Of a DNA stretch of 64,000 nucleotides, positions 62,343-62,994 are shown piece after piece. Made by a program: the position numbers and the translations under genes. The DNA is from Escherichia coli (GTDB lineage: Bacteria; Pseudomonadota; Gammaproteobacteria; Enterobacterales; Enterobacteriaceae): the NCBI RefSeq assembly GCF_036507355.1, contig NZ_AP027877.1; one strand, written 5' to 3'. Below the pieces are notes generated by a model. The model worked only from the letters and a program-made list of their open reading frames with translations, did not search any database and had not been told where the DNA came from. Numbering within the stretch: position 1 is the stretch's first letter; the number at the start of each line of letters is the position of its first letter.

Positions 62343-62494
62343 TTATTTAATCAATGAGTTCTGAAAGGTATGAAGTCTATCATCCAAGTCTCAATCGATC
62401 GATACTTGCGGTAGTTGATGAGGAAAACTCTGGTACACAAAGCTTTGCACTGGACTGCAAGGTGTTGTGCTTCTCTGGAGTGCGACATGTTTGA

Positions 62495-62536
62495 TAACAA
62501 AAAATTAGCGCAAGAAGACAAAAAATCACCTTGCGC
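62495..62536 (-). terminator. Candidate intrinsic terminator between the prophage right end and gtrA
   Basis: Hairpin GCGCAAG-(15 nt)-CTTGCGC, followed on the minus strand by TAATTTTTTG. Confidence 0.35.
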
Positions 62537-62685
62537 TAATGCTCTGTTACAGGTCACTAATACCATCTAAGTGGTTGATTCATAGTGACTGGATATGTTG
62601 TGTTTTGTCGCATTTTGCAGTCTATTATTTAACCGCGAATTCGTGTAATGCGATGATTTTTAAGTGATTAATATTATTTTGTCAT

Positions 62686-62812
62686 CCTTAAATAAGGAAA
62701 GGGTCATGATGAAGTGGATCATCATCGTGGTGCTCTTAGTCATAAGCTTCCCGGCTTACTAAGACTACCAGGGCGGGGGAAACCCCGCTCTACCCTCACT
62801 CCTGAAAGTATG
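62686..62812 (-). ncRNA. sib: Sib antisense sRNA of the split unit (3' end and terminator displaced by the prophage); ends approximate
   Basis: Antisense to ibs 62706..62762; the hairpin normally upstream of ibs is now found only at the left junction (about 52615..52636). Confidence 0.3.
62706..62762 (+). CDS. ibs: Ibs-family type I toxin (18 aa)
   Basis: Encodes MMKWIIIVVLLVISFPAY; its native upstream sequence is replaced by prophage-end DNA. Confidence 0.7.
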   Translation: MMKWIIIVVLLVISFPAY

Positions 62813-62994
62813 CCTTCACGATAAGATTGTCAATCTGCAGGCTTTGCAGTCTGCGATCCTGCCAGCAAATATTCTTTGCGAGTCGTTACGCAATAATCAC
62901 AGAGGGAACTATTTTGTTCACGCGTTAGCGATAGACTGCATTCAGGGCGAAAGGAGGTAAGCCGACGATTTCAGCGGGACGCTGAAACGGGGAA

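What the first reader, a model, noticed from the sequence alone, without database searches (positions are those of the whole stretch)
62343..62830. Split Sib/Ibs unit: the antitoxin RNA loses its terminator and points into the gtr operon
For the ibs ORF at 62706..62762 the cognate antisense Sib gene is on the minus strand, the same strand as gtrA-gtrB-gtr. Its presumed terminator hairpin has been moved about 10 kb away to the left junction. Sib transcription would therefore read into prophage DNA toward gtrA, with a candidate terminator at 62495..62536 in between. The toxin ORF has also lost its native upstream region. This is an unusual coupling of a type I TA module to O-antigen modification genes and may alter toxin/antitoxin balance.
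Basis: inference. Interest (0 to 1): 0.6.

Follow-up and report, generated by a model that had tools for sequence, protein, structure and literature searches.

The report
Prophage insertion splits a Sib/Ibs unit
A decayed lambda/HK022-like prophage carrying O-antigen glucosylation genes sits inside one copy of the Sib/Ibs toxin-antitoxin repeat, cutting the antitoxin RNA from its terminator and the toxin gene from its promoter, but a conserved phage terminator lies before the gtr genes, so this is an ordinary integration scar rather than new regulatory wiring.

Summary
The mdtA-yegL gap carries three Sib/Ibs units, and the middle one is split by a 10,049-bp insert. The insert is flanked by a 12-bp identity, CCTTAAATAAGG, at 52637-52648 and 62686-62697. 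Joining the two flanks in silico recreates an uninterrupted three-unit locus found at 99.7% identity in E. coli genomes.

The right piece keeps the Sib promoter and body and the ibs ORF (62706-62762). The left piece keeps the ibs promoter/5'UTR and the GC hairpin (52615-52640) that ends Sib RNAs in K-12.

The insert is an IS-riddled lambdoid remnant. It has an HK022-type int that lacks its first 62 codons, lambda-like P and P' arms, and gtrCBA. Its core-binding sites match HK022, but its 7-bp overlap (AATAAGG) differs from HK022's AGGTGAA. The same attL junction occurs in 84 of 5,426 complete E. coli genomes.

Refined to 62499-62539 on the minus strand, it is the homologue of lambda terminator tI, invariant in lambda, HK022 and related prophages.

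I predict Sib-2 becomes a ~298-nt chimeric RNA that stops there, 157 nt before gtrA. gtrA carries its own conserved upstream block, and ibs-2 is promoterless. Functional coupling to gtr is therefore unlikely. All RNA-level statements are predictions.

The parts
52457..52636 (+). Left piece of split Sib/Ibs unit 2: ibs-2 promoter and 5'UTR region, now pointing into the prophage P' arm and int
   Evidence: Collinear with uninterrupted three-unit loci. Han 2010 places the ibs mRNA 5' end 18 nt beyond the Sib 3' end.
52608..52640 (-). Orphaned Sib-2 terminator: P7-type GC hairpin at 52615-52640 plus a UUCCCGUUU tail. It now lies downstream of the int remnant.
   Evidence: Fold gives -19.3 kcal/mol. 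The K-12 SibA/SibB annotated 3' ends fall just after the homologous hairpin. Han 2010 names P7 the terminator.
52637..52648 (.). attL core identity CCTTAAATAAGG. The 21-bp site reads GGCCTTA|AATAAGG|TAAGTTG.
52649..53609 (-). P' arm plus truncated HK022-type integrase gene (int', stop at 52722-52724; equivalent to HK022 Int aa 63-357), cut at 53609/53610 by an IS3-family element
   Evidence: 95% nucleotide identity to HK022, mEp235 and Gally. tblastn gives 95.6% amino-acid identity in one frame. IS3 family hits.
53610..59579 (.). IS-riddled interior of the prophage remnant: IS3-family pieces and two tandem IS1 copies
   Evidence: NCBIfam transposase hits; ORF list.
59580..62342 (-). gtrC (59580-61067), gtrB (61054-61983) and gtrA (61980-62342)
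   Evidence: Pfam PF14264, PF00535 and PF04138 on the identical proteins. 86-89% nucleotide identity to the gtrA/gtrB of SfI, SfII, SfIV, SfV and HF4s.
62361..62408 (-). Conserved block upstream of gtrA, holding the single GATC at 62397. Inferred to carry gtr's own expression signals.
   Evidence: Nearly invariant across the window, SfII, HF4s and ECNB21. GATC position. No sigma-70 consensus site reached the scanner's threshold, so its function is inferred from conservation only.
62499..62539 (-). Homologue of lambda terminator tI: 10-bp arms TTAGCGCAAG/CTTGCGCTAA with U6. Predicted 3' end of the chimeric Sib-2 RNA.
   Evidence: -19.9 kcal/mol, z -5.5. Annotated 'Transcription terminator tI' at the homologous position in phage O276. 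Invariant in lambda, O276, HK022 and M18.
62540..62685 (.). Phage P arm, holding homologues of the lambda Int arm-type sites 'int 1' and 'int 2'
   Evidence: 91% identity to lambda 27470-27669; lambda annotation; alignment A2.
62686..62697 (.). attR core identity CCTTAAATAAGG. The 21-bp site reads ATCCTTA|AATAAGG|AAAGGGT.
62706..62762 (+). ibs-2 toxin ORF (18 aa). It keeps its SD but has lost its promoter and most of its 5'UTR.
   Evidence: Translation. PF13956 on the identical gene. No promoter-like site on the plus strand at the scanner's threshold.
62691..62833 (-). Sib-2 antitoxin gene up to the junction: -35 TTGACA at 62833-62828, inferred TSS about 62797, P1-P6 body including the segments homologous to SibC TRD1 and TRD2 (inferred from SibC, not mapped here)
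   Evidence: Rfam RF00113, 140.1 bits, model positions 1-147. The reconstructed native form is 130/136 identical to K-12 SibB, and the promoter is identical to K-12 sibB.

Best explanation
This is the right junction (attR) of a degraded lambdoid prophage that integrated by HK022-type site-specific recombination into the middle of three Sib/Ibs type I toxin-antitoxin units between mdtA and yegL.

The bacterial site is the 21-bp segment GGCCTTA|AATAAGG|AAAGGGT. On the Sib strand this is the single-stranded anti-Shine-Dalgarno stretch immediately before the Sib terminator stem. On the ibs strand it is the SD region.

Shown here: the crossover separates {Sib promoter + Sib body + ibs SD/ORF} on the right from {ibs promoter/5'UTR + Sib terminator hairpin} on the left.

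Inferred consequences:
1. Sib-2 is still transcribed from its intact promoter, which is identical to K-12 sibB. It runs about 160 nt through the AT-rich phage P arm and terminates at the phage's tI terminator. This gives a ~298-nt chimeric RNA instead of ~137 nt, retaining the segments homologous to SibC TRD1 and TRD2.
2. ibs-2 has no promoter and is effectively silenced, so the unit is disarmed rather than unbalanced.
3. gtrABC is expressed from its own conserved upstream block, not from the Sib promoter.
4. At the left junction, the ibs promoter now fires antisense into the int remnant, and the Sib hairpin caps int-strand transcripts.
5. The element cannot excise, because int lacks its first 62 codons.
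For: Structure:
- Rfam places three full Sib genes in the gap.
- The 12-bp identity lies at both junctions.
- The in-silico empty site matches uninterrupted E. coli loci at 99.7%.
- The same attL junction is present in 84 of 5,426 complete E. coli genomes, and the right junction in 67. These include an intact lambdoid prophage (strain E2) and remnants in M18 and ECNB21.
- The identical arrangement occurs in two NCBI draft assemblies.

Integration system:
- int' is 95.6% identical to HK022 Int aa 63-357.
- The core-binding sites flanking the overlap in the reconstructed attP (ATCCTTA ... TAAGTTG) match HK022's (ATCCTTT ... TAAGTTG) at 13 of 14 positions, while the overlap differs: AATAAGG against AGGTGAA. 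The M18 attR carries ATCCTTT, as in HK022.
- The 7-bp overlap and 21-bp BOB' architecture of HK022 are described in PMC4846993.
- In M18, attL and attR differ at one base left of AATAAGG, which places strand exchange inside that heptamer.

Sib terminator identity:
- K-12 annotated SibA/SibB 3' ends.
- P7 terminator stem and SibD 3' primer in Han 2010.
- Fold energies.

tI identity.

Antitoxin competence without P7: Han 2010 showed that SibC 3' deletions fused to a foreign terminator still repress, and that TRD1 alone suffices.

The fold of the 313-nt chimeric transcript region keeps the Sib core helices and ends in the tI hairpin.

gtr autonomy: the conserved upstream block is shared with phages that have unrelated att/int.
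Against: - No RNA data exist for this locus. Promoter activity, the 3' end at tI and the silence of ibs-2 are all predictions.
- The consensus scanner did not call the Sib promoter (15-nt spacer), the tI hairpin (loop longer than 8) or any gtrA promoter. Those assignments rest on homology, not on motif scores.
- The efficiency of tI for a transcript started at a strong constitutive sRNA promoter is unknown here.
- Weak AT-rich promoter-like sequences in the P arm could give some ibs-2 transcription.
- No free phage with the AATAAGG overlap was found in the phage or IMG/VR collections. Integration at this site is inferred from prophage junctions only.
Confidence: 0.75

Rival explanations
1. One reading: the terminator-less Sib-2 transcript reads through the phage DNA into gtrA-gtrB-gtrC, so O-antigen glucosylation is partly driven by the Sib promoter.
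For: Sib-2 and gtrABC are co-oriented and only 455 nt separate the Sib TSS from the gtrA ATG. No sigma-70 consensus promoter was found upstream of gtrA. Terminators are rarely 100% efficient.
Against: A strong canonical intrinsic terminator, the tI homologue (-19.9 kcal/mol with U6), lies between them. The remnant has no N-type antiterminator left among the ORFs I annotated. The gtrA upstream block is conserved in phages whose lysogens have other host flanks. Prophages at the same junction can lack gtr altogether.
Confidence: 0.1
2. Sib-2 does not reach tI. It is ended or trimmed near the junction, either by Rho acting on the untranslated C-rich/G-poor P-arm RNA or by weak termination and processing after the P1/P6 structure and the CCUUAUUU tract. 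This would give a roughly 110-200-nt RNA.
For: The P-arm RNA is untranslated, and stretches such as ACAAAACACAACAUAUCCAGUCACUAUGAAUCAACCAC are C>G. The Rfam model itself ends at CCUUAUU after a long closing helix.
Against: No stable hairpin with a U-tract lies between 62640 and 62705 or elsewhere before tI. Rho sites cannot be predicted with these tools.
Confidence: 0.15
3. The split unit is transcriptionally dead on both strands (Sib-2 promoter inactive), so nothing of regulatory relevance remains.
For: The element is old and decayed, with IS insertions and a truncated int.
Against: The Sib-2 promoter and body are identical or near-identical to those of K-12 sibB and to uninterrupted loci (130/136 over the RNA, 99.7% over the locus).
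Confidence: 0.05

Closest known systems
Coliphage HK022 Int/att system (attB between torS and torT by my recollection; 21-bp BOB' with 7-bp overlap)
   Same: The integrase remnant is 95.6% identical. The P and P' arms are homologous. Core-binding sites ATCCTT(T/A) and TAAGTTG are shared. The identity between partners spans the overlap.
   Different: The overlap is AATAAGG, not AGGTGAA (6 of 7 positions differ). The bacterial target is a Sib/Ibs unit, not the HK022 site CACTTTAGGTGAA seen in the mEp235 lysogen. The int here is truncated and non-functional.
Lambda attP-tI/sib arrangement (int terminator and retroregulator lying across attP from int)
   Same: The hairpin at 62499-62539 is the sequence homologue of tI. 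It has the same distance and orientation relative to the core. After integration it lies at the far end of the prophage, facing transcription that enters from the host flank. Its role in lambda is from my own knowledge of Guarneros/Schmeissner-era work.
   Different: Here the incoming host transcript is a defined, constitutive sRNA (Sib) that lost its own terminator in the crossover. Retroregulation of int is moot because int is a remnant.
E. coli K-12 SibB/IbsB (and SibC/IbsC as the dissected model)
   Same: Family membership by Rfam and Pfam. The promoter is identical to K-12 sibB and 130 of 136 nt of the RNA are shared. The P1-P6 body and the segments homologous to TRD1 and TRD2 are present.
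   Different: The P7 terminator stem is replaced by about 190 nt of phage DNA ending in tI. The ibs promoter and 5'UTR are detached 10 kb away.
gtrABC-attP-int modules of serotype-converting phages (SfI, SfII, SfIV, SfV, P22, HF4s)
   Same: gtrA lies closest to attP and is transcribed away from it. The gtrA upstream block is conserved. gtrA/gtrB are 86-89% identical in nucleotides.
   Different: Those phages carry different integrases and att regions. SfII has a different int-to-gtrA spacer and HF4s a P22-type int; that they integrate next to tRNA genes is my recollection. Here the gtr cargo is attached to a lambda/HK022-type att region.
Phage integration into tRNA, tmRNA or sRNA genes with restoration of the gene's 3' end
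   Same: A small, highly conserved RNA gene is used as attB, and the crossover lies near its 3' end.
   Different: Only 12 bp are duplicated. The phage does not rebuild the Sib terminator, so the RNA gene is truly altered.

Membership tests
Sib RNA (Rfam RF00113) / Ibs toxin (Pfam PF13956) type I TA | Covariance-model match above the gathering score on the strand opposite a short hydrophobic ORF | tested here: met
   140.1 bits against a gathering score of 56, model positions 1-147. The 18-aa ORF MMKWIIIVVLLVISFPAY carries PF13956 on the identical gene.
Sib RNA (Rfam RF00113) / Ibs toxin (Pfam PF13956) type I TA | Intact transcription unit: own promoter and own 3' terminator stem (P7) for Sib; own promoter and 5'UTR for ibs | tested here: not met
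   The Sib promoter is present. P7 is absent at the right junction and found at 52615-52640. The ibs upstream region is at 52457-52636.
Sib RNA (Rfam RF00113) / Ibs toxin (Pfam PF13956) type I TA | Toxicity of Ibs and repression by the cognate Sib | not testable with these tools
   Needs expression assays. Only the retention of segments homologous to SibC TRD1/TRD2 is shown, and that is inferred from SibC work, not mapped here.
HK022/lambda-type heterobivalent tyrosine-integrase att site | Prophage flanked by direct repeats of a core that contains a 7-bp overlap between imperfect inverted 7-bp Int core sites | tested here: met
   attL GGCCTTA|AATAAGG|TAAGTTG and attR ATCCTTA|AATAAGG|AAAGGGT. 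Architecture as in PMC4846993.
HK022/lambda-type heterobivalent tyrosine-integrase att site | Adjacent integrase of the family, with P/P' arms carrying arm-type sites | tested here: met
   int' is 95.6% identical to HK022 Int aa 63-357. The P arm aligns with lambda, including the annotated Int sites 1 and 2.
HK022/lambda-type heterobivalent tyrosine-integrase att site | Precise empty site exists in related genomes | tested here: met
   99.7% identity over 100% of the reconstructed site, in one piece.
HK022/lambda-type heterobivalent tyrosine-integrase att site | Recombination activity of Int on this attB | not testable with these tools
   int is truncated here. No free attP form was found in the databases.
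Lambda tI intrinsic terminator | Sequence homology to annotated tI, a GC-rich hairpin with a U-tract on the int strand, located across attP from int | tested here: met
Lambda tI intrinsic terminator | Termination of Sib-initiated transcripts in vivo | not testable with these tools
   Needs 3' end mapping.
gtrABC O-antigen glucosylation operon | GtrA (PF04138), GtrB (PF00535, GT2) and GtrC (PF14264) in this order on one strand | tested here: met

The most novel reading that the evidence does not exclude
A sub-lineage of HK022-type temperate phages has adopted the anti-SD/terminator junction of a type I antitoxin RNA as its dedicated attB, and lysogeny rewires the module to the phage's benefit. 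The toxin is silenced. The constitutive Sib promoter now drives transcription across the attR P arm up to tI, which could interfere with assembly of the excisive intasome. The liberated ibs promoter makes antisense RNA to int. Together these would stabilise the prophage, and some leak through tI might add to gtr expression.
Probability: 0.1. Interest if true: 0.55.

Novelty: new member of a known kind. Interest (0 to 1): 0.3.

Why it matters
It documents a prophage attachment site inside a type I toxin-antitoxin unit, present in about 1.5% of complete E. coli genomes. I found no description of it in the searched literature.

It shows how an HK022-type integration module can be retargeted by a different 7-bp overlap while keeping its core-binding sites.

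It gives a natural experiment for Sib biology: an antitoxin with its P7 terminator swapped for a phage terminator, next to a promoterless toxin gene.

For annotation, it warns that the Rfam Sib model reports a full-length match even when the real terminator is gone.

It does not reveal a new regulatory principle.

Tried and rejected
- A weak plus-strand Rfam SIB hit at 62668-62807 (28.7 bits, below the gathering score) reflects the palindromic character of the unit. Rejected.
- A second terminator between tI and gtrA, matching the one annotated in SfII 87-133 nt upstream of gtrA. The SfII hairpin folds well (-18.9 kcal/mol, z -3.2), but the window's equivalent does not stand out (z -0.75) and has no clean U-tract. 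Not counted.
- The consensus promoter/terminator scanner missed the Sib promoters and tI and found no gtrA or ibs-2 promoter. It was uninformative on those points.
- Search for a free phage with the AATAAGG overlap: none among the HK022-int phages in GenBank and no attP form in IMG/VR. Only two attL forms turned up.
- An exact attR pattern found nothing in the species-representative genomes, so the source strain was not identified beyond two draft assemblies.
- Literature searches for sib/ibs or mdtA-yegL as a phage integration site found nothing relevant.
- Fozo et al. 2008 was not available under the PMC id I recalled, PMC2597788, and no lambda sib/tI paper was found. The lambda retroregulation background is therefore from my own knowledge.
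- An assembly artefact or chance repeat was rejected, because identical junctions occur in many independent genomes.

Full report
**What is in the sequence**

The window ends in the E. coli-type mdtB-mdtA / yegL region. Rfam finds three full-length Sib antitoxin genes on the minus strand, at 52314-52456, 62691-62833 and 63020-63168. All are far above the gathering score (136-150 bits against 56). Each lies opposite a short ibs ORF. The one in the finding, 62706-62762, encodes MMKWIIIVVLLVISFPAY. The identical gene on an identical public contig carries Pfam Ibs_toxin.

About 10 kb of foreign DNA lies between the first and second Sib. It contains:
- an integrase fragment at 52722-53609;
- IS3-family and two tandem IS1 elements;
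- gtrC, gtrB and gtrA on the minus strand, 59580-62342.

**Is the unit really split?**

Yes. The Rfam model is misleading on this point. It begins at the Sib -35 box and ends at CCUUAUU, so it scores "1-147 of 147" even though the true RNA continues.

Several lines identify the real 3' end. In K-12 RefSeq, SibA and SibB end just after a GC hairpin, …CCUUAUUUAUGGCCCCUUCCUCGGGAGGGGCUUUC. Han et al. 2010 (PMC2943612) describe SibC as 141 nt ending in the "P7 transcription terminator stem", and their SibD 3' primer ends in this same hairpin.

Downstream of Sib-2 at the right junction there is no such hairpin. The minus strand of 62640-62705 folds at only -4.2 kcal/mol (z -0.67). The hairpin is found at the left junction instead, at 52615-52640 (-19.3 kcal/mol), preceded on the plus strand by the ibs upstream region.

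Both junctions share the 12-bp sequence CCTTAAATAAGG, at 52637-52648 and 62686-62697. Joining 52100-52648 to 62698-63350 produces a sequence that matches uninterrupted loci with three annotated ibs genes over its full length, as a single piece. Examples are E. coli XH990 (99.7%), O157:H7 TR01 (99.6%) and others. The 57 bp on either side of the core in XH990 are exactly the window's left and right flanks. The reconstructed native Sib-2 is 130/136 identical to K-12 SibB and has an identical promoter.

**What the insert is**

The integrase fragment corresponds to HK022 Int residues 63-357 at 95.6% identity in one frame. It is cut at 53609/53610 by an IS3-family element.

The DNA just inside the right junction (62431-62631) is 91% identical to lambda 27470-27669. 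That is the P arm, with the annotated Int arm sites "int 1" and "int 2".

Written as 7+7+7 bp, following the HK022 BOB' scheme (PMC4846993), the sites are:

| Site | Sequence |
|---|---|
| attL | GGCCTTA\|AATAAGG\|TAAGTTG |
| attR | ATCCTTA\|AATAAGG\|AAAGGGT |
| HK022 attP | ATCCTTT\|AGGTGAA\|TAAGTTG |

The core-binding sites are those of HK022, but the overlap is different. All isolated phages with this integrase type that I examined keep the AGGTGAA overlap: HK022, mEp235 and Gally show it directly, mEp506 only partly (its record starts inside the core), and the Stx1a phage record shows AAGGTGA at that spot. No free attP with AATAAGG was found in IMG/VR.

In strain M18 the attL and attR cores differ at the base just left of AATAAGG. 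This places strand exchange within that heptamer.

Units 1 and 3 of the window share the O and B' sequences and differ only in B: GGCCATA and GGCTTTT against GGCCTTA. This may explain why the middle unit was used, but that is inference.

The site is in real use:
- 84 of 5,426 complete E. coli genomes carry the attL junction and 67 carry the attR junction.
- Strain E2 holds an apparently intact lambdoid prophage there.
- M18 holds a remnant without gtr.
- ECNB21 holds a remnant with gtrABC.
- The window's exact arrangement is in GCA_047852605.1 and GCA_905398585.1.

**The "candidate terminator"**

It is real. It has 10-bp arms at 62505-62514 and 62530-62539 and a minus-strand U6 at 62504-62499 (-19.9 kcal/mol, z -5.5).

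It is the homologue of lambda terminator tI. The homologous position in phage O276 is annotated "Transcription terminator tI". The hairpin stem and T-tract are invariant, and the loop differs only by one A, across lambda, O276, HK022, the M18 prophage and the window.

In lambda, tI lies across attP from int and stops non-antiterminated int transcripts. After integration it ends up at the opposite prophage end, facing inward from the host flank. That background is my own knowledge of the lambda literature; I found no paper in the library. The geometry is the same here, and the incoming host transcript is Sib-2.

**How it most likely works**

Shown: the crossover lies in the Sib J1/7 anti-SD stretch, at the foot of the P7 terminator. 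It leaves the Sib promoter, P1-P6 and the ibs SD/ORF on the right, and the ibs promoter/5'UTR and P7 on the left.

Inferred:

1. Sib-2 starts near 62797, by homology to the K-12 sibB start and Han's SibC +1. It crosses the core and about 150 nt of unstructured AT-rich P arm, then stops at tI. The result is a ~298-nt RNA instead of ~137 nt. The Sib core helices are preserved in the predicted fold.
   It should still be a competent antitoxin. Han et al. found TRD1 (+46 to +68) sufficient, and found that 3'-deleted SibC fused to a foreign terminator still represses.

2. ibs-2 lacks a promoter. Han et al. place the ibsC mRNA 5' end 18 nt beyond the Sib 3' end, which here maps to about 52592-52596 on the left piece. 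No plus-strand promoter-like site reaches the scanner's threshold in 62200-63320. The module is therefore disarmed, not tipped toward toxicity.

3. gtrA has a 48-bp block (62361-62408) that is nearly invariant in SfII, HF4s and ECNB21, even though those elements have other int/att neighbours. I infer that it carries gtr's own signals, although no sigma-70 consensus site was scored there.

4. At attL the ibs promoter now points antisense into int', and the Sib hairpin lies downstream of int'.

5. The remnant cannot excise.

**Rivals**

I give it about 0.1.
- Early Rho-dependent or weak intrinsic termination in the P arm is plausible at about 0.15 and cannot be assessed with these tools.
- A dead Sib-2 promoter is unlikely, given its identity to K-12 sibB.
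- A second terminator between tI and gtrA, as annotated in SfII, is not supported in the window.

**Comparison with known systems and novelty**

Every component is a known kind:
- a Sib/Ibs unit;
- an HK022/lambda att region with tI;
- a gtrABC-attP module as found in serotype-converting phages.

Three things appear undocumented, at least in the library searched:
- a Sib/Ibs unit used as attB;
- the AATAAGG overlap variant of the HK022 module;
- the fact that the phage does not rebuild the 3' end of the RNA gene it targets. This differs from tRNA/tmRNA integrators, because only 12 bp are duplicated.

I therefore rate it a new member of a known kind, of modest interest (0.3). The specific claim that made the finding look exciting, a TA-to-gtr coupling, is the least supported part.

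Noticed in passing
window 52314-52456, 62691-62833, 63020-63168; L003 (K-12): This locus has three Sib/Ibs units where K-12 has two. K-12 sibB looks like a hybrid: its promoter and 5' part match the window's unit 2, while its 3' junction (CCTTATTTATGG, mdtA flank) matches unit 1. This suggests a deletion by recombination between repeats in the K-12 lineage.
   Followed up: partly
L005 (E. coli M18) 3958 and about 20250: The attL and attR cores of the M18 prophage differ by one base (CCTTAAATAAGG against CCTTTAATAAGG). 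This maps the left exchange point to the right of that base and defines the overlap as AATAAGG.
   Followed up: partly
window 54772-56275: Two IS1 copies lie in direct tandem with a 777-bp period (ORF pairs 54772-55275/55194-55469 and 55549-56052/55971-56246), that is, 768 bp of IS1 plus 9 bp. This is an IS1 dimer inside the prophage remnant.
   Followed up: no
window 53609/53610: An IS3-family element truncates the HK022-type int after removing codons 1-62. Further IS3-family pieces lie at 56297-57166 and 58016-58828.
   Followed up: partly
window 52457-52648 (plus strand) into 52649-53609: The detached ibs-2 promoter region now points into the prophage, antisense to the int remnant. In intact prophages at this site (strain E2, L006) this could produce an antisense RNA to int.
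   Followed up: no
window 38121-38206 (-) and 21857-21953 (+): CyaR/RyeE sRNA (100.7 bits) and a TPP riboswitch (71.2 bits) are present at the expected K-12-like distances from the sib locus.
   Followed up: no
window 62397: There is only one GATC between gtrA and the att core, and it lies inside the conserved gtrA upstream block. My recollection is that Salmonella gtr operons controlled by Dam/OxyR phase variation have paired GATC sites. If so, that mechanism is not evident here.
   Followed up: no
window 62351-62566 (-): A 71-aa ORF spans the gtrA upstream block and the tI hairpin. It is most likely spurious.
   Followed up: no
L014 (IMGVR_UViG_2648501235_000001) 1-142: An attL of the same type in which the host side is replaced, 11 bp upstream of the core, by a sequence ending in an IS50/Tn5-like end (…CTGATCAAGAGACAG). 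This may be a transposon insertion in the Sib terminator.
   Followed up: no
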